Origin: Spizellomyces punctatus DAOM BR117
Lineage: Eukaryota
Length of the DNA stretch: 52,598 bases
Assembly (NCBI GenBank): GCA_000182565.2
Contig: KQ257471.1
Strand: one strand, 5' to 3'
Shown here: positions 3,422 to 50,406 of the stretch, piece after piece
Position numbering within the stretch: position 1 is the first letter of the stretch
Layout: each line of letters begins with the position of its first letter
Position numbers and translations under genes: made by a program
Notes under the pieces: model-generated
Told to the model about the DNA's origin: nothing
What the model saw: only the letters and a program-made list of their open reading frames with translations
The model's database searches: none

Positions 3422-3731
3422 ATTTTTAAAGTGCAGTGTTATTGCCCCCCGTCCATGCCACCCTGCGAAGCTACTGGCGTAATACAATGCTTGCTCAATC
3501 GTCTGCGACAGTTTGTCTGCCACTTAACGTGATGAGTTGTCTTAATAACCGCGCAAGGGATCTCATTATCATCAGTAGCCAGCAAGTCGGCTTCAGGGGC
3601 CTGACCGATGAGACACTGGTTGCCAGTAGATTGACAATGTGAAGGACAGTAACGTGCGTGCAAATGGTACAGTCTATCGAATAGCGGAAGTGAACGTAAT
3701 CCAGAGAGTGGCTTAGCTAGGTGAAATCAAT

Positions 3732-4600
3732 GTGTGGAGGTGATTGAAAGTGGCACTAGGACCCATTATTATCCGGATTAATCCGGTTAATCATATCGCA
3801 TAATCAGCACCCCCATCTATCGCTCAAAGCGGTGTGGCATGCATGTAATGTTTTTTTTTTTTAAACTGCAGTGAGGCGCATGCTGAAGGTCTATAAAAGG
3901 GGACCTGCTCCCTCTTTCCTCTTTACCCATCCTCGACTCTCAAACCATCTGCGCAAACGCTCATCACGACCCACATCACAACCCTCATCGCGACTCGGTC
4001 AACCATGAGAATGCAGATGTAGTGGTGCCGAGGACCTTGCCCACCTGATTACAACCAACTGGAACCAGCGCAGCCTCGGAACCAACAAAGCTGTTATTAT
4101 GCTGCCACATTAGTTGAGCTTGGTTGGTATGTACTGATTGCATTTTGTCATTCTGTCATTCATCTCGCTGACATGCCATTTTTTGTAGTCTCCAAGCCTT
4201 GTCACTGAAAATCCCCCAGCTTGTGACGCTGCCCAGTCGATTCGCTCCTGGATGCAAGAGTCTGGCTTCAATGCCATCAAGAGTTCTGGATCAAGGCCTA
4301 GTAGGGACCGCGTGTGGTGGTGGGCAATCATCCGGTTAGAACCAACCGTTACGTATTGCGTGTATAATTGCCTAGTAGTAGCTTAGCTTTTCCGAACCAG
4401 TTGTCGCCGGTTTATTCCCTGGTGTACAGCTTGTGCAGATAAAGATGGTGCATCACGTGAGTCATGTGGGGGTCTAGAATTCTAGTCTACACGTCCAAGA
4501 TTCTTGCTGGTGCGGCGGCATGACCCCCACATGACTCACGTGATGCACCATCTTTATCTGCACAAGCTGTAGCTAGTGCCAGTTTCTGTCACCTCTACAC
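3732..4600 (+). mobile_element. Non-autonomous TIR element, Fanzor 'ghost'-like, copy A (contains nested MITE)
   Basis: 28-bp imperfect TIRs (left gtgtggaggtgattgaaagtggcactag; right reverse complement gtgtagaggtgacagaaactggcactag; 24/28 match), TA at 4601-4602, and close similarity along its length to 29105-29813. Confidence 0.88.
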
Positions 4601-4617
4601 TAATCGTGCGTGAAAAT
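4386..4617 (+). ncRNA. Putative Fanzor omegaRNA of copy A (scaffold 4386-4602 interrupted by MITE; predicted guide about 4603-4617)
   Basis: gcttttccgaaccagttgtcgccggtttattccctggtgta[MITE]tagctagtgccagtttctgtcacctctacacta; same layout as the other two copies and as the SpuFz1 scaffold recalled from the literature. Confidence 0.7.
4427..4569. mobile_element. 143-bp MITE, Tc1/mariner-type (Stowaway-like)
   Basis: Perfect 48-bp TIRs (4427-4474 and 4522-4569) starting CAG, flanked by TA (4425-4426 and 4570-4571); absent from the homologous site in copy C. Confidence 0.93.
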
Positions 4618-5290
4618 AGAAATGTCAGTGCCACGGAGCATTGCAGCCAGTTGAATTAACCACATTTATTGTGACATCAACCTCATGAAGATAAACAAAA
4701 AGACAGGTCCAATATGTGTGGCCATGAACGGTGCAATTACTATCCCTTGCGGTCATCTATGAGAGGAATATTCTGCAGTTGCCACCTGCATGATGCTCCA
4801 TGACTCAATATATCCACTCTTTTTCTATATAAACTCCCCCTCTTCTTCTTCCCTCTTGTCTCTTTATCCCTCGACTCTCAAAGCATCTGCCCAACGCTCA
4901 AGTCTCAAATCCATCATGAGAATACTGCTCTGGTGCTGAGGACCTCATCCACCCGACAAAACCAACATAATCCCTTGCAAACGCTGCTATTACTATATTG
5001 CTACGATCGCAGGTATATCTTGCTGATTTTTCCCACGTGCATATTCCCAATTTTACGTAGTATCTGAACATCCTCCGACCCAAAAAGAGCTTTGGAATCA
5101 AAGGCTTAGTAGGATTTCTCTCGTGGTGGTGGGCTTAGTTACCCGGTTGACCAACCGTTATGTATTGCATGTGTAATTGGGCCCAGTCGTAGTTGGTTGT
5201 AAGGAGGGAATTACTTAGCTTTTCCGGGCTGGTTGTCGCCAGTCTACCCCCTGGTGTCTTGTGTTGTGACTTTTGTTATTGCCAATACAC
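4606..5290 (+). mobile_element. Diverged Fanzor 'ghost'-like element, copy B (left end approximate)
   Basis: Shares with copies A and C, in the same order: TATA plus CT tract, cctcgactctcaaa, catgagaat, gaggacct, intron, gtggtggtgggc, ccaaccgtta.gtattgc and the 3' ttttccg...cctggtgt...tacacta end. Left TIR is only weakly recognisable. Confidence 0.75.
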
Positions 5291-5307
5291 TACCAGTAGC
5301 GACTCTG
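5218..5307 (+). ncRNA. Putative Fanzor omegaRNA of copy B (scaffold 5218-5292, 75 nt; predicted guide ccagtagcgactctg)
   Basis: Hairpin ggctgg-ttgtcg-ccagtc and closing stem tggtgt/acacta; stem changes are compensatory relative to copy C. Confidence 0.7.
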
Positions 5308-18710: not shown

Positions 18711-21097
18711 ATGGCGGAAGCTGTAATTTCATCCGGTCGGGTTGGTACTCCTACTCAGTCCCATGACAGAATAGTCAGCATAGATAACCAGAACGAACAG
18801 TCCGAGTCCGATAGTCAGGATACTGTGAAAAGCCTTGAGAGGAGAATAGTTGAACTCGAAACCCAGCTCAAGGTAGCGTTGTTCTTACAGCGCCTTTTGC
18901 ATCCCACCTATTCCCTCGAACCCTTCATGCTTTTTGCTTGAATTAGAATGTCAGCGAACAAAAAGAGAAAGAGTTGGCCCTCGCAGCGGAAACTATTACG
19001 CGGAAAAATGATGTGATTGACGTTATGCGAATAAAGCTGAATCGGTACGAGTTTGCAATCAAAGAAGCCATTCTCTTTCTGGGAAAGCCAATGTTGAACT
19101 TTGAGGAATGGCTGACGCGTGGAGGAAAGGAGTCCTTCAGTGGGGATTCCGGCCAAGCTGAGCATTCCCGTATCGCCTCAACTATCAGCAAATCCAACAA
19201 CGATAAGTCTTTGCCGGCACAGATGGCAGAGAAACAACAAGCTCAGCAGGCTGCAAACTTCCAGCTGTCTCTGACGTCCGGCTCAAAAGCAATGTTGCCA
19301 GGCGGCGCAACACCGTTGGAAGTTCAGTGTATGGAATGTCTGCGCCTGGCGTTGAATTATCTAAAAAGTGCCCAGATGTCAGTTAAGGCTGTGTCAGAGC
19401 CCAAGCCACCAGGCATTCAAACTACTCAGGATCTGGAGCCTCTGCCTCGATTGAATGGTGAGGCAGCACATGCAGAGTCAGCGTCCCCCGGCGACGGGGC
19501 ATGGCCCAAACTATCTCCTTGCAGAGAAGAGGAACCTGAGCCCCCACGGCTTGGTACAGCTTCAAGCGATACAAAAGGACTTTTGTCAACCGGAAATATG
19601 TCACAGGCAGGGTTACAATCTGGTCGATCATACTCTTCTGCCTCAAGCCATGAAAGGAAGATTTCAGCTCAAAAGGCCGCTGCAGCACTTTATCATGCTG
19701 CTACTTCTCTACCAGAGGATGACGAGAGCGATCTAGCAACCAATCCATCGAGGAGTACTGGAACAGCCCCAAGCACCCCAACGATCAGTAAATGCCACTT
19801 CTGCCGTGACAATATGCTACAACTACACCACTTGCAGGATACTATTGACGGTCTCAAGCTTGATATCACGGATCTTGCCGATCAATTAGAGGAGGAACGC
19901 GCCATAAGGGATAGACTACAGCTGAGCAAGGACATTTTAGATCAAGAACTCGAGGAGCTTACTGCTCAACTGTTTGACCAAGCGAATCGAATGGTGATAG
20001 ATGAAGCAAAAATGCGGGATGAACTGGAACATTCTAATCGCCAATTGAGGGGCGAGCTGAGCGAGGTAATGCAAAATTTTAGAAGACGGGACGACGAATT
20101 ACAACAGCTGCGTCAGTCTCTACGGGCACTAGAAGCTGCTAAACTACGCTCAAGCTCTGTTACCAACCTTACCTCTGCTGCTGGTTCCAGTTCGCCCCTG
20201 GGTTCACAATCCAGCCTTGCCACTTCTGGCCCTCCTCTCCGTCGTGACAGTATTATGCGAAGGTCATCAGTAATTGTTTCCCCGCATGGCTCTTTCCCAG
20301 TCCTAGGCATCAACTCGTCCTCAACCATCCCAGTCGACGGGATCATCTTCTCAGAATTTCAGGAGCATGTAAAGGAAACCATGAACTCGAACTACCAACA
20401 AACACCCTCTATTACAACTCAGTTCTTTAAACGGTGTATGGCGGAGGATGTCGAACCATGCCTATTCTACGGGTACCACCTGGACGGAGGTGGGATATTC
20501 AAGCAAACACAGGGCCTAAGCGCATCAAGCAAAAAGAAATTCCTGGAAAACATATCACGGGGATGGTGTGAAGTGGTACCGCATTGGGCAACTCGATCGA
20601 ATTCTTCACTTGCGAGTAAGATATCACAGTCACCTTCCTCACCATCACCGTTGTCGGGTGACATCGCCTCCCAACAATCACAGCGACCAGCAGCTCGTAC
20701 AAAATGCTATGCTTGTACGTTGATCCGAGATTGTGATTACAAAATCCGGTTTGTCCCCCCAGCGCCGAGCACATCGTCTACAACCACAGGATCCGTTTCC
20801 TCATCCTCAGCAACACAAACTTCCTTATCACCAGATGCGGCGTGGCAACCTCTATGTCGATTTTGTAGGGATCGAATTCTTGCGGTGCTTGGTTTCTTTG
20901 CATTTTTGTCGCATTTGCGTGATGGGGTGAAGCACGGTGCGACGATCCTTGCGATGTTCCGACAAGTCCTATGGTTGCGAAGGCGTATGGCGGGGTCGAG
21001 AATAGGGAGTACTGCATTGTTCGATGGGGACGCAGACGGAAACTGGAGGCTTGAAGCAGGGGGTGATTGGGAAAAACTGGTGCAAATAATGCCGTGA
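18711..21097 (+). CDS. SEC2: Rab GEF of the Sec2/Rabin8 family
   Basis: Coiled coil with DILDQELEELTAQLFDQANRMV (Sec2p domain), FFKRCMAEDVEPCL, CYAC and LCRFCRDRI C-terminal motifs; one intron at about 18873-18946. Confidence 0.85.
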
Positions 21098-25014: not shown

Positions 25015-25123
25015 GCAGACCCAGAGGACCTTTAGTAGTTCAAGCTGCCCCACACTATCTCGGGACCGTTCAACTATGGAAGCACCATGCGATAGCACTA
25101 GCGACTACTAGCAGAAGAGGCCA

Positions 25124-27699: not shown

Positions 27700-28720
27700 G
27701 GTTCTTAAATCTGCCGACATTGCCTTCCCGACTTCCGAATCGAATCGACACTCTTGATTTCCACACTTGTGAATCTGGGGATTGTTTTGTCGAGTGCCTC
27801 TGCGATGCCAATTGTGCGAACGCACTTTCCACACTTGCCACAGTAGGCTTGGTCATCGATGATCAACTAGAGGTGGGAGCCATCATATTGGAGGTTGACC
27901 TCCACAGTTCTCTGTAGATCACTTGGCCGTCGTGCGGCCATCGTGCACGTTTTCGCATGCAGAGAGTACAGCGAAAGAAGCCATGATGGACAATGTAAGA
28001 TAAACCGTATGGACAGAGGTATGAAAATTAAGGAACGATGCTCAGCTGATTACATTGAAAGATCTGGTGCAATTGGAGCAATATAAAGCCCACCACAGCA
28101 TGCCCTATGACACTCAAGCGACTATCCAAGAAACCATGGCGAATTTCAAAACTGAACAGAACACTTACGAGAGATGTCCCAACAAGGGTCACGAAATACA
28201 AGCTAGAGGTCCAAATCATCAGTGGAAAAGACTCAAAGTGTCTGGAGCCAAATGGTTAACATGAGTCCTAAAATTGATTTCGCTGGCTAGGCCCTGACCT
28301 TTACTCGAAAGCTCGTCGGCTGCATTTCTTGATTTCTGTGAGGCAACCACAAAGAGGAAACGTGCGGACGGTTTCACATACCTGTATTTTCAGTGCGGAA
28401 AAGACAAAGGAGGTCGAGTGTTTATAAATCGTTCTTATTCTCTGGATGATTACTGGTACTTTATCATACACTACAATGCAAAGGCCACAGGAGCACCATT
28501 CTGACCAGAGGTCTTGGATGACATATTCTTTAAGGCCATAGCTCTGTTGCAGAGCGAGTAAACGCGCAGATTGGACAGTCTCACCCATTCTCATCGGAAA
28601 CGTGCCGTGGGGCAAACATGTGCTCAATAGCTTGTCGATCCAGGGCACTGTGGACCTTTTTCGATGTCCGCCAATGATCATCTTTTGACGATGTCTATCC
28701 AGCTTCCACAAAAATCTTGT
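27700..28720 (-). pseudogene. Possible decayed gene of unknown family
   Basis: Minus-strand frame EVNLQYDGSHL*LIIDDQAYCGKCGKCVRTIGIAEAL has an internal stop; further short coding-like fragments at 28301-28711; no recognisable domain. Confidence 0.25.
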
Positions 28721-29104
28721 CTTACTTCAGCATCGGAAAGACAAAACTGCTAGCGGGGTTCCTAAACATAAACGAGAGTGGAAGGATAAAAATGAGGAAA
28801 GGACGAGATGCCAGAGCAAGAGAGAACAAGATCAGGCAAGTGTTTTAATGTATGTCAGTCACCTCGTGGGCTATTATGGCGTGCCCCGAGTTGATGATGG
28901 CAGGGAGGGTGCACGACCGAATTCTGCATGAAAGCTTCCTCCGAAGGAAGATTCAGTACATGTGAACATCACCCTACGGTATAGAACGTTTACGTTGCAC
29001 AGGACGACACGCAAGGCAATGATACGGATGCATTTGATCATGCTTTCCGTCAACATCTATTCGTCACGACCGTAGGATACCTAGGACATCATCTGAACCA
29101 CATA

Positions 29105-29813
29105 GTGTGGAGGCGATTGAAAATGGCACTAGGACCCATTATTATCCGGAGTAATCCGGTTAATCATATCGCATAATCAGCACCCCCATCTATCGCTCAA
29201 AGCGGTGTGGCATGCATGTAATGTTTTTTTTTTAAACTGCGGTGAGGCGCATGCCAAAGGTCTATAAAAGGGGACCTGCTCCCTCTTTCCTCTTTACCCA
29301 TCCTCGACTCTCAAACCATCTGCACAACGCTCATCGTGACCCACATTGCAACTCTCATCGCAAGTCCATCATGAGAATGCAGATGTGGTGGTGCCGAGGA
29401 CCTCGCCCTCCCGATGACTACAACCAACTGGAACCAGCGCAGCCTCGGAACCAACAAAGCTGTTATTATGCTGCCACATTAGTTGAGCTTGGTTGGTATG
29501 TACCAATGGCATCATTTCATTCTGTCATTCATCTTGCTGACATGCAGTTTTTAGTCTCCAAGCCTTGTCACTGAACATCCTCCAGCTTGCGAGTCTCCCC
29601 AATGTTGTGAAGACTCTGGCTTCAATGCCATCAAGAGTTCTGGATCAAGGCCTAGTAGGGACCGCGTGTGGTGGTGGGCAGTTATCCGGTTAGAACCAAC
29701 CGTTACGTATTGCGTGTATAATTGCCTAGTAGTAGCTTAGCTTTTCCGAACCAGTTGTCGCTGGTTTATTCCCTGGTGTAGTAGCTAGTGCCAGTTTCTG
29801 TCACCTAATACAC
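29105..29813 (+). mobile_element. Non-autonomous TIR element, Fanzor 'ghost'-like, copy C (most intact)
   Basis: CATA at 29101-29104 immediately 5'; TA on both sides (29103-29104, 29814-29815); imperfect TIRs gtgtggaggcgattgaaaatggcactag / ctagtgccagtttctgtcacctaatacac; homologous to 3732-4600; no transposase or nuclease ORF. Confidence 0.9.
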
Positions 29814-29830
29814 TAAGCATGCCTATTGGA
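29740..29830 (+). ncRNA. Putative Fanzor omegaRNA of copy C (scaffold 29740-29815, 76 nt; predicted guide agcatgcctattgga)
   Basis: gcttttccg-aaccag-ttgtcg-ctggtt-tattccc-tggtgta...tacacta: perfect 6-bp hairpin plus a 7-bp closing stem; resembles the SpuFz1 omegaRNA as recalled. Confidence 0.78.
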
Positions 29831-29990
29831 CGTGCAGGTCGAGTATTTGTTGCAAATGGACCACAATTGAGCACATGGCACATTCGAACCAAAACCTTAT
29901 CAAAGTTTTCCGATCGTGCTATGACTCATTTGGAAGGCCCGTCAGATTGTTGCGGCCATTCTCGACTATCTTCTTGGATGGCGATTAAAA

Positions 29991-32148
29991 ATGTCACTTC
30001 ACGACAACAATAGATCCCTTTCTCCCACTAGGCAACGAGCAGACAGTCCTTCGCGTCAACCACAACAGCGTATACAAAATGATAGAGAAAGAGAGCAGCA
30101 GCGAATAGGCACTCGGGCGCTTATTGGACGGCACTCAAAAGATCGGAACCTGAGCATCTTCCTGGAGGAAAGGAAAATTGTATCTGAGGATGGAGCAAGA
30201 TGGCCGCACCTTGCAGGGTTGGTGACTGTAGATCCTGTAGGTGCTAGGGGACTCCTTCTGGAAAAATATGGTGAGATTCTGCTACTACTATTAATTTCTT
30301 TCGCCGCGAGTGTAATCTGCCTTAACCTGGCTTAACCTTGGTGATGCGGACAGTTCCCTACGCAGAAGTGCAATGCATTCTTTTGTACCGGACGGCGCTG
30401 GGCGCCGTGATAGAAAGGGTTGTCTATAACCGGACAAGCCAATTGCGGGAATTGCCATCAAATGCGGATAGTTCGTCGGCTACCACATGGGAGGGCACTC
30501 AACCGGGGCGTCGAAGATATCCATTTTTCTTCGACTTCGGAAATGATGCGCTACCTCCCTCATTTTGTTTTGATCCAACGGACCTCCATGAAGGTGTTCC
30601 GATTGGACTTCATTGGGAAGTTATGGGCTTCTTGGGACAAAAGGTCATGGTCACCGAAGACGGGATGGCTTCCTTGAGTATGGATAGCGCTGGAAATATG
30701 TTGCAAGGAGCGTCGTATACGTTTCGAAGACAGTCGCTGGTAACACTCAACTTCCATGTGGAGCACCGGCACACTCTTTCGGGACTAGCCCTACCACCAA
30801 TGACATCCACTCAAACGCTTCGCCCATCCCTATTTTCATTTGGACGATCATCGCAACCTGAGACAACCGTCACTGCTACTCTTGAGCGTCCGCTATGCAG
30901 TTCCGAAGCACCTTTGAAAGTGAATGTTGAGCTTACCAAGCTCCACAAATCTCACCGTGTCCAGCGAATTCGTCTCGTTGCCAAACAAATCATTACTATC
31001 CGCCTACCTACCCAACAGCAGTTACAGTACAAAGCAAATATCGCTGTAGCGGAGGATACTCCTGCTCCACGGTACGACCCGTCAAGCAATAACGAGTTCA
31101 ACGGTGTTTATGCGTTGCATGTTGGCCGAGGGATCCCAGAGAAACCGAAGAAAGGCAAAAGTCCGGCGCGGGTGATACCGTTGGATTGGTTTAAGAATCC
31201 CGTGCCGTTATCCGCGGCAAAGGAATTTGTTGCGTCTACTCCTCCGGTGAAGTCCTTCGATGACGCTTGGGGCCTCGAGGTCAAGTACGTTTTGAAAGTG
31301 GAGGTATCCCTCTCCGACTCGAGCGGGACGTTCGGAACTAGGGAACGTGAGTTGGAAGTGTCTTTGCCGTTCATACTGACCGGGGTTCCAGAGGGTGAGT
31401 TTTCTTGCTGAACTTTGTGGGAGCGGATATTAATTGGTGTCTCCTCTTAGACGAGGCTCCAGCGGCAGCTGCGATTGTATCACCATCCCGTCGTTCCTCA
31501 ACTTCAGAAGATACTGTACCCACCGCACCCGACGCGCTACTTCCCTTACTTTCCGAAACCTTGGATGATCTTGAGCAATCTACGGCAGATGTAGCGATTT
31601 TGCGCCAGGAATGGCGAAGCTTACGCAGTGAATCGACAAATTGCACTAGGTCTTCGGACCATGCCCACGAGATACTTGATATTCTGGGGATGCTAACCAG
31701 GCAACTTAAAGTTTTTGCGGAAAGTTACTCTGTTAGTGACGGTGCGGTCCGTTGGCCCAAAAACCCGGTTCCCTTCAATATGCTCGTGCTCGAAACAGAG
31801 CTACTAGCTCGAGCTGCACCGGATGAGTTGACAGTTGAGGCTCAAGACACCGCGGGACGCACTGGTGGAGCTGCCGAAAACAGTGTATCCGTGGTGGACG
31901 CTGTCTTGAAGGCCACCGATGCCTTCTTTTCCGCCGGTAAATCAGTCGTTCTTGCGTGGATCGCCTCACGTGGCGGAACCCACGACGCTGCAGAATCTGA
32001 AGAATTTTCAAGAAAGGTCGATACTCTCGAAAATGCAATAAACAGCTTGAAGAGGGGATTGGAAGCGATTGTCGCAGGGGCCGATCAGGAGTTTGTGCAG
32101 GCTGAAGATTTAGACAAAGATAGGGAAACCTCAGCTTTGGAAGCGTAA
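29991..32148 (+). CDS. Arrestin of the beta/visual type with a C-terminal helical extension (multi-exon)
   Basis: HSKDRNLSIFLEERKIV...GLVTVDP, RYPFFFDFGNDALPPS...GLHWEVMGF, VTATLERPLCSSEAPLKVNVEL...[31 protein letters not shown]. Confidence 0.75.
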
Positions 32149-48586: not shown

Positions 48587-50406
48587 ATGGCTACTATTGA
48601 CGAAAAGAAAGACCCTATCGGGCTAGTTGAAGGCGGTGTACTGGACGAAATGGACGAGGAGGCTCGTCGTCACGCCGAGCTCGAGGCAAAGCTCAACAAA
48701 GACCTCGATGAGAAGATCCTTTCCAACCCGAACTCCTTCCCCAAGGCCGTTTTCTTCATTATCCCCAATGAGATGGGAGAGCGATTCTGTTTCTACGGTA
48801 TCAACCCTCTTCTCAAGGATTATCTCAAGGAGTTTGTTGGTTACAAGTCCAACAAGGCTGAAGCTATGGTCCACGTTTACAAATCCGTCACCTACTTCTT
48901 CCCTCTTGTTGGTGCCGCGATTTCCGACTCTTTCTTGGACAAGTACAAGACAATCGTGTCCTTGTCCACCTTCTACCTCCTTGGTGTCTCTCTCTTGGCT
49001 ATATTTTCTAAGCCCGGTGTGATCGGCACACCACCAACGGTTCCCGAATGGGGCCCTTTGCTCGGTCTCTTCCTCATCGCATTCGGCACGGGAGGTATCA
49101 AGCCCTGTGTGTCCTCTCACGGTGGTGATCAGTTCTTGTCTGTGCAAAAGCTTGAACTGAACAAGTTCTATAACTGTAAGTCGACATCCATATTGAAATC
49201 AGGCTCTATCCCCATCCAACGGTATTAACATCCTCCGTTAATATGTAGACTTCTACATGTCCATCAACGTCGGAGCTGTTGCTGCCGGTTTCATCACCCC
49301 CGCCATTAAAAACAGAAGCTGCTACGATCTCGCTGGAGGAAAGGACTGTTACGCTTGGGCTTTCGGTGTCTGTGCCATGGCCTTCGCCCTTGCTATGTCT
49401 GTCTTCATTATCGGAAAGNNNNNNNNNNNNNNNNNNNNNNNNNNNNNNNNNNNNNNNNNNNNNNNNNNNNNNNNNNNNNNNNNNNNNNNNNNNNNNNNNN
49501 NNNNNNNNNNNNNNNNNNCGGTCCAATTTATCCCATGGCAATTGTTCAAGACCGCCCGTTTCCTATTCCCAAGAATGCTCTTACAAACGGCTTCAACCAC
49601 GAGAAGGCAAAAGCTGCAGCTTCCGAGTCCCAGGGTGAAACTAATGTGATCGAGCTATTTGATCTTCTCCGCGTCATTATGGTTATTTCCCCCGCGCCCT
49701 TCTTCTGGATGGCATTCGACCAGAACAATACTTCATGGCAATCTCTTACTGATCAAATGAACCGAAGTGTTTGGCCATCGTCTGAGACTATCAACGCCGT
49801 CATGAACCCCTTGCTGATTGTTATCCTCGCACCTATCTGGGCCAACTTCATCTACCCTGCCATTGAACGTCGAGTGCAATTTGGTCTCTTGAGACGTATG
49901 GTCGTCGGAATGATTCTCTGTGGTCTTGCCTTCATCGTTTGCGGTATTATCCAAAATCGTGTCAGCAGCAACTGTGTTGTCCGTGAGTTCACAAATGCGG
50001 GCGTCACGTCAACTGAGTGCATTGACGACGGAATCAGCACACCCATCTTTATCATTCCATACTTCATTATGACTACTGGTGAGATTTTGTTCTCCATCTC
50101 CGGATTGAACTTCACCTACATGGAAGTCGGCAAGCGAACAAAGTCATCCTGTGCTGCCCTGTGGTTGTTGGGAACCGCTCTTGGAAACGTCTTTGTAAGT
50201 TTGCAACAAGTTCTTTCTGACGATTTGACCGCATCGATGCTCATCAATTCAATCTGTAGGCCACGGCACTTTTCGAGTCACCCATTGGTGATACTGACCA
50301 CACCGGCCGTGCAAAGTTCTTCTACATCAACGCGGGTATCTGCTTTGGTGCATCTATCCTTCAGATGTTCCTCAACCGTTTCTACGTCTACAAGGCTGAC
50401 CGATAG
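48587..50406 (+). CDS. PTR2: Proton-dependent oligopeptide transporter (POT/PTR2), spans the assembly gap
   Basis: NEMGERFCFYG, GAAISDSFLDKYKTI, GTGGIKPCVSSHGGDQF, FYMSINVGA, FWMAFDQ, GEILFSISGLNFTY. Confidence 0.95.
49419..49518. other. Assembly gap (100 N)
   Basis: Run of n characters inside the PTR2 gene. Confidence 1.

What the first reader, a model, noticed from the sequence alone, without database searches (positions are those of the whole stretch)
29101..29830. Nuclease-less Fanzor 'ghost' transposon carrying an intact omegaRNA-like guide scaffold next to a CATA TAM
Seen: a 709-bp element with imperfect ~28-bp TIRs and TA at both ends, preceded exactly by CATA, with no nuclease or transposase ORF. 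Its last ~76 nt fold into a hairpin (aaccag-TTGTCG-ctggtt) and a closing stem (tggtgta/tacacta) that overlaps the right TIR. Established: Spizellomyces punctatus Fanzor1 is a TnpB-derived RNA-guided nuclease with a 5'-CATA TAM. Its omegaRNA is a ~75-nt scaffold at the element's right end plus ~15 nt of flanking DNA as guide, and Fanzor-less ghost loci are known. From memory, that scaffold shares TTTTCCG, TTGTCG, CCCTGGTG, GCTAGTGCCA and terminal CACTA with this sequence. Inference: this locus supplies a guide (agcatgcctattgga) in trans that targets its own empty site CATA|agcatgcc..., acting as a homing/retention cassette.
Basis: partly seen in the sequence, partly recalled or inferred. Interest (0 to 1): 0.9.

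Follow-up and report, generated by a model that had tools for sequence, protein, structure and literature searches.

The report
Known Fanzor "ghost" guide-RNA transposon
This is one copy of the nuclease-less "ghost" jumping elements already described in the soil fungus Spizellomyces punctatus, which keep only the folded guide-RNA end of the Fanzor RNA-guided nuclease system; it is real but ordinary for this genome.

Summary
At 29103-29815 there is a 713-bp element with imperfect ~31-nt inverted ends. TA sits at both tips and CA lies just upstream, so 29101-29104 reads CATA. No reading frame exceeds 112 aa. The last 75 nt fold into two stems (z -3.68).

The window is Spizellomyces punctatus DAOM BR117: one ORF is 716/716 identical to SPPG_08473. 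Saito et al. 2023 reported 134 such "ghost Spu-1" loci in this genome, and a 2026 paper catalogued 126 ghost scaffolds.

With position 75 set at the element's end, the scaffold carries 11 of the 18 canonical omegaRNA nucleotides named in print. Allowing a 1-nt shift, 15 of 18 match.

Two further copies lie in the window. A divergent one shows three compensatory base-pair swaps in stem-loop 1.

The idea that the element targets its own empty site is geometrically consistent and untested.

Small additions, found in neither paper's main text:
- The ghost core has a TATA box and a 59-nt intron that is spliced in RNA-like runs of the family.
- Its short ORF is not conserved.
- A conserved ~60-nt block just 5' of the scaffold may be structured.

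The parts
29101..29104 (+). CATA: the conserved CA (29101-02) plus the element's terminal TA (29103-04). It equals the SpuFz1 TAM.
   Evidence: In X1, six contigs of family copies become unlike this locus only before 29100 (table 7). The paper reports CA conserved upstream of the 5' inverted repeat and a CATA TAM.
29103..29134 (+). Left inverted repeat
   Evidence: 24 matching positions against the reverse complement of the right end, 0 of 2000 shuffles.
29263..29269 (+). TATAAAA box, kept in copy 2 and, as TATATAA, in copy 3
   Evidence: Promoter function is inferred.
29371..29495 (+). First part of the short ORF, from the ATG to the 5' splice site
   Evidence: Its only database relatives are SPPG_09412, SPPG_09407 and SPPG_08830.
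29496..29554 (+). 59-nt GT..AG intron
   Evidence: table 5: a 29494->29554 joint in X16 (1 contig) and X7 (2 contigs). The three annotated gene models share the same LVELG|CLQ junction.
29555..29693 (+). Second part of the short ORF, up to TAG 29691-93. The spliced product is 87 aa and is probably not a conserved protein.
29672..29732 (+). Block just 5' of the scaffold. It is the part best conserved between subfamilies and is predicted to form a three-way fold.
   Evidence: 26/32 identical in each of two 30-nt windows, c1 vs c3; 2 pairs changed on both sides; z -2.45, -1.32, 0.12.
29741..29815 (+). 75-nt omegaRNA scaffold (ghost type)
29748..29767 (+). Stem-loop 1: 8 bp around the motif TTGTCG
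   Evidence: Between c1 and c3, 3 pairs changed on both sides and 1 on one side, all kept as pairs.
29774..29815 (+). Stem 2, closed by UGGUGUA/UACACUA, with a 3-nt bulge in the predicted fold
   Evidence: The paper says ghost stem 2 has a 3-nt bulge.
29783..29815 (+). Right inverted repeat, ending in TA
29816..29830 (+). 15 nt of flank: the putative guide, AGCATGCCTATTGGA
   Evidence: Inferred from the paper's 14-15-nt extension beyond the scaffold. No RNA was seen for this locus.
3730..4602 (+). Copy 2 of the same subfamily, preceded by CA then AT. It has a premature TAG in the short ORF.
4427..4568 (.). 142-bp foldback insertion that splits stem 2 of copy 2
   Evidence: The covariance model aligns only the first part of this scaffold.
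5219..5292 (+). 74-nt scaffold of copy 3, a divergent subfamily

Best explanation
This is one of the published 'ghost Spu-1' elements of Spizellomyces punctatus DAOM BR117. It is a non-autonomous transposon with inverted ends and TA on both sides, related to the Fanzor1-carrying SPu-1 transposon. It has no nuclease gene but keeps the 75-nt omegaRNA scaffold at its right end.

**Likely working, shown in part.** The core is transcribed from its own TATA promoter as a spliced, probably non-coding RNA. The 3' end of that RNA (scaffold plus about 15 nt of flank) would be trimmed to an ~90-nt omegaRNA. SpuFz1 protein made from the Fanzor-bearing copies elsewhere in the genome would load it.

**Inferred consequence.** That complex could cut the element-free version of this site, CA-TA followed by AGCATGCCTATTGGA, which has the CATA TAM. 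The occupied site reads ACTA before the target and would be spared. Repair from an occupied copy would keep or restore the element. I put this homing step at about 0.35.

**Status of each step.**
- Shown here: identity, anatomy, the RNA fold with compensatory changes, and splicing of family transcripts.
- Shown in print: ghost scaffolds from four loci guide SpuFz1 in human cells.
- Inferred: expression and use of this locus's own guide, and homing.
For: **Organism.** ORF 18947-21094 is 716/716 identical to SPPG_08473 of S. punctatus DAOM BR117.

**Printed description of the class.** There are 134 ghost loci with 30-nt inverted repeats, CA upstream of the 5' repeat, no Fz ORF, a 75-nt right-end region like the Fz omegaRNA, a 14-15-nt guide and a CATA TAM. 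Bao and Jurka 2013 give 33-bp inverted repeats and putative TA duplications for SPu-1.

**Match at this locus.**
- Ends.
- CATA.
- No long ORF.
- Fold: z -3.68 with a 3-nt bulge in stem 2.
- Named canonical nucleotides: 11/18, or 15/18 with a 1-nt shift, with position 75 fixed at the element's end.

**RNA-level constraint.** In stem-loop 1, three pairs changed on both sides and one on one side between c1 and c3, all still pairing. Unpaired columns are 32/39 identical against 19/36 for paired columns.

**Family size and expression.**
- In X1, depth is 576.6 in bin 29103-29169 against 4.02 in the left flank. The tool warns that depth is not a copy number.
- The 29494->29554 GT..AG joint appears in X16 and X7.
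- X7 also joins 30269->30353 in the neighbouring single-copy gene, so it holds cDNA-like molecules.

**Subfamilies.** A 2026 paper reports 126 unique ghost scaffolds of 74-76 nt in several clades. This fits the two subfamilies seen here.
Against: - No Fanzor-bearing SPu-1 locus could be fetched, so homology of these inverted repeats to the Fz-locus repeats rests on the paper, not on a test here.
- The core between the repeats is about 650 nt, against 'around 550 nt' in the paper.
- The published omegaRNA letters and the list of 134 loci are in supplements I could not open.
- No RNA-like contig crosses the right end of this locus. X16 and X7 have depth 0 in bin 29840-29906, and contigs cannot show RNA ends.
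- The X1 and X2 contigs that cross both junctions look like DNA: flank depth is even and there are no splice joints.
- With the flank included, the fold is not distinctive (z -1.50).
- Compensatory changes between two ghost subfamilies may date from Fanzor-bearing ancestors.
- Copy 2 is preceded by CAAT, not CATA.
Confidence: 0.85

Rival explanations
1. An inert, decaying non-autonomous transposon. The right end looks like an omegaRNA only because it descends from a Fanzor element. The RNA made from this locus is not loaded or used, and the element persists simply as junk mobilised in the past by an unknown transposase that duplicates TA.
For: - Two of the three copies in the window are damaged. 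Copy 2 has a 142-bp insertion in stem 2, a broken pair in stem 1 and a premature stop. Copy 3 has no clear left inverted repeat.
- No RNA was seen across this locus's right end.
- The authors found no transposase for the Spu-1 elements and leave the role of ghost loci open (discussion passage).
Against: - This copy's scaffold is intact and matches the protein-contacting nucleotides named in print.
- Stem-loop 1 kept its pairing through three double changes.
- Ghost scaffolds from four loci work with SpuFz1 in human cells.
- The family core is transcribed and spliced.
Confidence: 0.3
2. The element is a vehicle for a small protein gene. The spliced ORF (87 aa in this copy) would be the functional payload and the RNA scaffold would be secondary.
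For: - A TATA box, an ATG and a spliced 59-nt intron are present.
- Three annotated gene models share the N-terminal part and the splice junction: SPPG_09412, SPPG_09407 and SPPG_08830.
- The two indels between c1 and c2 inside the ORF are multiples of three, 3 and 12 nt.
Against: - Copy 2 has TAG at codon 6 and copy 3 has TGA at codon 8.
- After the splice site the three gene models read different frames.
- c1-c2 substitutions fall 2:9:8 on codon positions 1:2:3, with no third-position excess.
- Pfam gives one weak match, below its cut-off (NinE, E 0.037, for SPPG_08830), among the five sequences tested at E<=1.
- The only PDB matches at E<=10 are weak repeat proteins.
- Only 2 proteins in the 5.8-billion collection match, both from this species.
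Confidence: 0.05
3. An ordinary Tc1/mariner-like miniature transposon unrelated to Fanzor, whose right-end hairpins are a coincidence.
For: TA lies on both sides and the inverted repeats are about 30 nt. Rfam has no match at E<=10.
Against: - Ten of the scaffold nucleotides named in print match in exact register counted from the element's end: U5, C6, C7, U16-G20, A72 and A75.
- The organism is the one in which ghost loci were defined.
Confidence: 0.02

Closest known systems
Ghost Spu-1 elements and ghost omegaRNAs of Spizellomyces punctatus (Saito et al. 2023, PMC10432273; passages and section 10 read)
   Same: - Same genome.
- About 30-nt inverted repeats with CA upstream of the 5' repeat.
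- No Fanzor ORF.
- A 75-nt two-stem scaffold ending at the right tip, with a 3-nt bulge predicted in stem 2.
- CATA formed at the left junction.
- A multi-copy family.
   Different: Nothing essential. The core here is about 650 nt against 'around 550 nt'. Whether this locus is among the 134 listed could not be checked, because the supplement is closed. The TATA box, intron and non-conserved ORF of the core are not mentioned in the main text.
SPu-1, the Fanzor1-encoding transposon of S. punctatus (Bao and Jurka 2013, PMC3627910, passages read; SpuFz1 loci in Saito 2023)
   Same: Inverted repeats of about 30-33 bp, putative TA target duplication, and an omegaRNA scaffold at the right end.
   Different: SPu-1 is about 2.1 kb and carries the 633-638-aa Fanzor1 ORF. 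This element is 713 bp with an unrelated core. According to the paper, the ghost repeats differ from the Fz-locus repeats at seven positions; this was not tested here.
Ghost scaffold collection gst1-gst126 (Nat Commun 2026, PMC13434818, passages read)
   Same: Ghost scaffolds of 74-76 nt that fall into several sequence clades. The window's c1/c2 and c3 scaffolds (75 and 74 nt) are two such types.
   Different: That work treats the scaffolds as editing reagents. Which gst number, if any, equals this locus could not be checked, because its Supplementary Data are closed.
IS200/IS605 TnpB with its omegaRNA (from established knowledge; cited in Saito 2023, discussion passage)
   Same: It works alike. 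The guide RNA is read across the right end, the guide is the flanking DNA, and the TAM sits at the left junction. The nuclease therefore recognises the element-free site.
   Different: The bacterial elements have no inverted repeats and no target duplication, and they move as single strands through TnpA. Here there are inverted repeats, TA on both sides, an unknown transposase, and the nuclease is supplied in trans.

Membership tests
Ghost Spu-1 element (Saito 2023) | Lies in the genome of S. punctatus DAOM BR117 | tested here: met
   ORF 18947-21094 is 716/716 identical to SPPG_08473. The ghost-core ORF hits only S. punctatus proteins.
Ghost Spu-1 element (Saito 2023) | About 30-nt inverted repeats at both ends | tested here: met
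   24 matching positions over about 31 nt, 0 of 2000 shuffles. 22-nt arms, 82% complementary.
Ghost Spu-1 element (Saito 2023) | Conserved CA just upstream of the 5' inverted repeat | tested here: met
   CA at 29101-02 for c1 and 3728-29 for c2. In X1, six family contigs diverge only before 29100.
Ghost Spu-1 element (Saito 2023) | No Fanzor ORF between the inverted repeats | tested here: met
   The longest frame is 112 aa. No Pfam match reaches its cut-off; one weak hit for a paralogue, NinE at E 0.037. The two ORF peptides do not match SpuFz1 chains in the PDB.
Ghost Spu-1 element (Saito 2023) | 75-nt right-end region similar to the canonical SpuFz1 omegaRNA | tested here: met
   The test is indirect. 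Of the 18 scaffold nucleotides named in section 10 of the paper, 11 match directly and 15 match with a 1-nt shift for positions 29-40.
Ghost Spu-1 element (Saito 2023) | Ghost-type stem 2 with a 3-nt bulge | tested here: met
   The minimum-energy fold of 29741-29815 has a 3-nt bulge in stem 2. This is a prediction only.
Ghost Spu-1 element (Saito 2023) | Conserved core of around 550 nt | tested here: inconclusive
   The core here is about 650 nt (29135-29782). Copy 3 is shorter. The paper's alignment (Extended Data Fig. 3b and its supplement) was not visible.
Ghost Spu-1 element (Saito 2023) | Inverted repeats homologous to those of the Fz loci, differing at seven positions | not testable with these tools
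   There is no Fz locus in the window: 29 of 30 ORFs of 150 aa or more were scanned and none has a TnpB or Fanzor domain. No genome is held.
Functional omegaRNA locus | An 88-90-nt RNA that runs 14-15 nt past the right end | tested here: inconclusive
   Only contigs could be laid. RNA-like runs X16 and X7 have no cover in 29840-29906, and contigs cannot show RNA ends.
Functional omegaRNA locus | Supports cleavage by SpuFz1 at a CATA-flanked target | not testable with these tools
   Shown in print for four other ghost loci only.
SPu-1 family transposon (Bao and Jurka 2013) | TA target-site duplication | tested here: met
   TA at 29103-04 and 29814-15. Copy 2 has AT on the left and TA on the right. 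No empty site was available to prove duplication.

The most novel reading that the evidence does not exclude
Ghost Spu-1 elements may be self-contained guide-RNA genes, not mere gutted transposons. On this reading they have:
- a TATA promoter
- a spliced, non-coding leader, which the genome annotation wrongly models as small proteins
- a conserved three-way-junction RNA domain (29672-29732) directly 5' of the 75-nt scaffold

Together these would drive, stabilise or process the omegaRNA. The native ghost guide RNA or its precursor would then be longer and more structured than the 75-nt form used for genome editing.
Probability: 0.3. Interest if true: 0.5.

Novelty: already known. Interest (0 to 1): 0.15.

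Why it matters
This adds little as a discovery. Ghost omegaRNA loci of S. punctatus were described in 2023 and mined again in 2026.

It also leaves two modest leads for those who study the natural biology of Fanzor:
- how ghost guide RNAs are made, given the core's own promoter and intron
- whether a conserved structured block 5' of the scaffold belongs to the native RNA

Tried and rejected
- **Whole genome.** None is held for this window. TIR copies and upstream 4-mers could therefore not be tallied genome-wide.
- **Rfam.** No match at E<=10 in 28000-31000, so Rfam gives no test of omegaRNA membership.
- **Published omegaRNA letters.** Six motif variants were absent from each of the two main Fanzor papers. 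Six variants were absent from the whole paper library. TTGTCG and UUGUCG were absent from the 2026 paper. The letters are presumably in closed supplements.
- **Metagenome contigs.** A 21-base-specified scaffold pattern gave 0 matches.
- **Is the ghost core a deleted Fanzor gene?** The two ORF peptides give no SpuFz1 match in the PDB at E<=10. Other frames were not tested.
- **RNA across the right end.** Only contigs could be laid. X16 and X7 have no cover in 29840-29906, and the X1 and X2 contigs that cross both junctions look like DNA. No conclusion either way.
- **Own covariance model.** A model built from the c1 and c3 scaffolds found only the three known scaffolds. The next best hit is 25033-25119 on the minus strand at 12.9 bits, E 0.083.
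- **Left end of copy 3.** Two candidates gave weak repeat alignments, reached by 123 and 24 of 2000 shuffles. This is left open.
- **Guide target elsewhere in the window.** With up to 3 mismatches, CATA plus the 15-nt flank matches only the locus itself, which reads ACTA.
- **Earlier notes of this scan.** None exist for this genome or this sequence.

Full report
**What is in the sequence**

One search shows an element from T29103 to A29815 (713 bp). Its first 32 nt align with the reverse complement of its last 33 nt at 24 positions with one gap. None of 2000 shuffles reached that score. The repeat finder finds the core of this repeat as 22-nt arms, 82% complementary.

TA is at both tips. The two bases before the left tip are CA, so 29101-29104 reads CATA. 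The longest stop-to-stop frame overlapping the element is 112 aa, so it cannot encode a nuclease or a transposase.

The element is a repeat, not a chance pattern. A second copy lies at 3730-4602. It is 90% identical over 709 aligned bases and is interrupted by a 142-bp foldback insertion at 4427-4568. A third, divergent copy ends at 5292.

**Where the window comes from**

The ORFs of 150 aa or more that match Pfam are ordinary eukaryotic genes, such as TTI1, Sec2p, a P-type ATPase, an LRR protein, an arrestin-like protein and POT. I scanned 29 of the 30 such ORFs. The one left out, 48623-49198 on the minus strand, lies antisense to the POT frame. None has a TnpB, Fanzor or transposase domain.

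The Sec2p-like frame 18947-21094 is 94% identical to a Spizellomyces sp. 'palustris' protein. It is 716/716 identical to SPPG_08473 of Spizellomyces punctatus DAOM BR117. The window is therefore from that strain or one indistinguishable from it.

**What is already in print for this genome**

Saito et al. 2023 (PMC10432273; passages read, section 10) report the following for this genome:
- 42 loci with full or partial Fanzor1 genes
- 134 'ghost Spu-1' loci that keep the inverted repeats but lack the Fz ORF
- about 550 nt of conserved core flanked by 30-nt repeats
- CA conserved upstream of the 5' repeat
- a 75-nt region at the right repeat similar to the Fz omegaRNA
- RNAs of 88-90 nt that extend 14-15 nt into the flank
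- a CATA TAM

Ghost scaffolds from four loci supported SpuFz1 editing in human cells. Ghost stem 2 is described as having a 3-nt bulge.

Bao and Jurka 2013 (PMC3627910, passages) gave 33-bp inverted repeats and putative TA duplications for SPu-1.

A 2026 paper (PMC13434818, passages) collated 126 unique ghost scaffolds of 74-76 nt in several clades.

**Does this element fit that description?**

The repeats, the CA, the TA tips, the missing nuclease and the multi-copy nature all fit.

The last 75 nt fold into stem-loop 1 (29748-29767) and a long stem 2 closed by UGGUGUA/UACACUA, with a 3-nt bulge. The z-score is -3.68 and 0 of 200 shuffles fold as well. Copy 3's scaffold folds the same way, with z -4.04 and 1 of 200 shuffles.

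I could not align the scaffold to the published omegaRNA. No main text prints it and supplements are closed. Section 10 of the paper does name 18 scaffold nucleotides. I numbered this scaffold so that position 75 is the element's last base, a boundary fixed independently by where copies 1 and 2 stop being alike.
- 11 of 18 match directly: U5, C6, C7, U16, G17, U18, C19, G20, C32, A72 and A75.
- 15 of 18 match if positions 29-40 are shifted by one.
- The three misses (G22, C40, G70) lie in the covarying stem 1 and in the distal stem 2, which the paper shows to be dispensable.

Rfam has no matching family.

**Evidence that the RNA structure was under selection**

Between copy 1 and copy 3, stem-loop 1 differs at four of its eight pairs. 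Three changed on both sides (A-U to G-C, C-G to U-A, A-U to G-C) and one on one side (A-U to G-U). All four still pair. The loop and the flanking single-stranded motifs are identical.

Unpaired columns are 32/39 identical, against 19/36 for paired columns.

This rests on two independent sequences. The changes may also date from Fanzor-bearing ancestors of the two subfamilies.

Copy 2 is decayed. It has one broken pair in stem 1 and the insertion inside stem 2.

**The core of the element**

The following features are not mentioned in the main text of either Fanzor paper that discusses ghost loci. Searches find no 'intron' or 'TATA', and 'splic' occurs only in a reference title.
- A TATAAAA box lies at 29263-69.
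- A conserved leader follows it.
- An ATG lies at 29371.
- A 59-nt GT..AG intron spans 29496-29554.

When public runs were laid on the locus, contigs of X16 (1 contig) and X7 (2 contigs) joined 29494 to 29554. X7 is labelled 'DNA?'. It also joins 30269 to 30353 with GT..AG ends in the neighbouring single-copy gene, so it holds cDNA-like molecules. Because family members lay at 90% likeness, these joints show splicing of the family, not of this copy specifically.

The only database relatives of the short ORF are three S. punctatus gene models: SPPG_09412, SPPG_09407 and SPPG_08830. They share the same splice junction.

The ORF does not behave like a protein gene:
- Copy 2 has a stop at codon 6 and copy 3 at codon 8.
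- The three gene models read different frames after the junction.
- c1-c2 substitutions fall 2:9:8 on codon positions 1:2:3.
- No Pfam family reaches its cut-off; the one weak match is NinE, E 0.037, for SPPG_08830.
- There is no SpuFz1 match in the PDB.

I read the core as a promoter plus a spliced, non-coding carrier transcript for the omegaRNA. This is an inference.

**A possible extra RNA domain**

The stretch best conserved between subfamilies is 29671-29730, just 5' of the scaffold. It is 26/32 identical in each of two 30-nt windows.

It is predicted to form the same three-way fold in copies 1 and 3, with two pairs changed on both sides. The z-scores are modest: -2.45, -1.32 and, for the decayed copy 2, 0.12. 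This is a lead, not a finding.

**How it most likely works**

By analogy with TnpB and as proposed by Saito et al. (discussion), the scaffold plus about 15 nt of right flank (AGCATGCCTATTGGA) would be loaded onto SpuFz1 made elsewhere in the genome.

If TA is a target duplication, the element-free site reads CA-TA-AGCATGCC.... That is a CATA TAM next to the guide's target. The occupied site has ACTA before the target. The paper reports that any TAM mutation abolishes cleavage.

The geometry for cutting only the empty site is therefore present. Expression of this locus's guide, its loading and any homing effect are not shown. I rate the homing step at about 0.35.

**Family size**

In X1, depth is 576.6 in the left-repeat bin against 4.02 in the left flank. 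X1 looks like DNA: flank depth is even and there are no splice joints. This is in line with the hundred-odd loci in print. The tool warns that such depth is not a copy number.

**Verdict**

The element is 713 bp rather than 709, and the CATA is CA plus the element's own TA.

The kind of element is already known, and was defined in this very genome. Interest is low. The only additions are the promoter-and-intron anatomy of the core, the non-conserved ORF behind three annotated 'proteins', the stem-1 covariation between subfamilies, and the possible 5' structured block.

Noticed in passing
window 3730-4602, insertion at 4427-4568: Copy 2 of the ghost element carries a 142-bp foldback insertion inside stem 2 of its scaffold. 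The insertion is 80% self-complementary and occurs once in the window. Removing 4427-4568 restores the copy-1 sequence exactly.
   Followed up: partly
window about 4600-5292: Copy 3, a divergent ghost subfamily, lies about 110 bp downstream of copy 2, so three ghost elements sit in 52 kb. Its left inverted repeat could not be placed: the two candidates were reached by 123 and 24 of 2000 shuffles. An IR-like fragment lies at 4610-4634.
   Followed up: partly
window 29975-29998: A 19-of-22-nt look-alike of the left inverted repeat lies 160 bp right of the element (D3). It falls inside what X7 contigs show to be the spliced 5' part of the neighbouring arrestin-like gene's transcript. It may be a remnant of another copy.
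   Followed up: no
window 29150-29162 and 29680-29692: The motif A(A/T)TCCGGTTA occurs in direct orientation near both ends of the element (D7). It could be a subterminal binding site. The right-hand one lies inside the conserved 5' block.
   Followed up: no
proteins P0001, P0002, P0042 (SPPG_09412, SPPG_08830, SPPG_09407): Three 'uncharacterized proteins' of the S. punctatus annotation appear to be translations of ghost-element transcripts in differing frames. They are probably non-coding RNAs annotated as genes.
   Followed up: partly
run X7 laid on window 28500-30500: A run labelled 'DNA?' shows GT..AG joints both in the element and in the single-copy neighbour gene (30269->30353). Its depth is very uneven: 0 at 29840-29906 and tens of thousands over the element's 3' part. 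It behaves like RNA or cDNA.
   Followed up: no
window 25033-25119 (-): A weak hit of the home-made scaffold model (12.9 bits, E 0.083). It is probably chance and was not examined.
   Followed up: no
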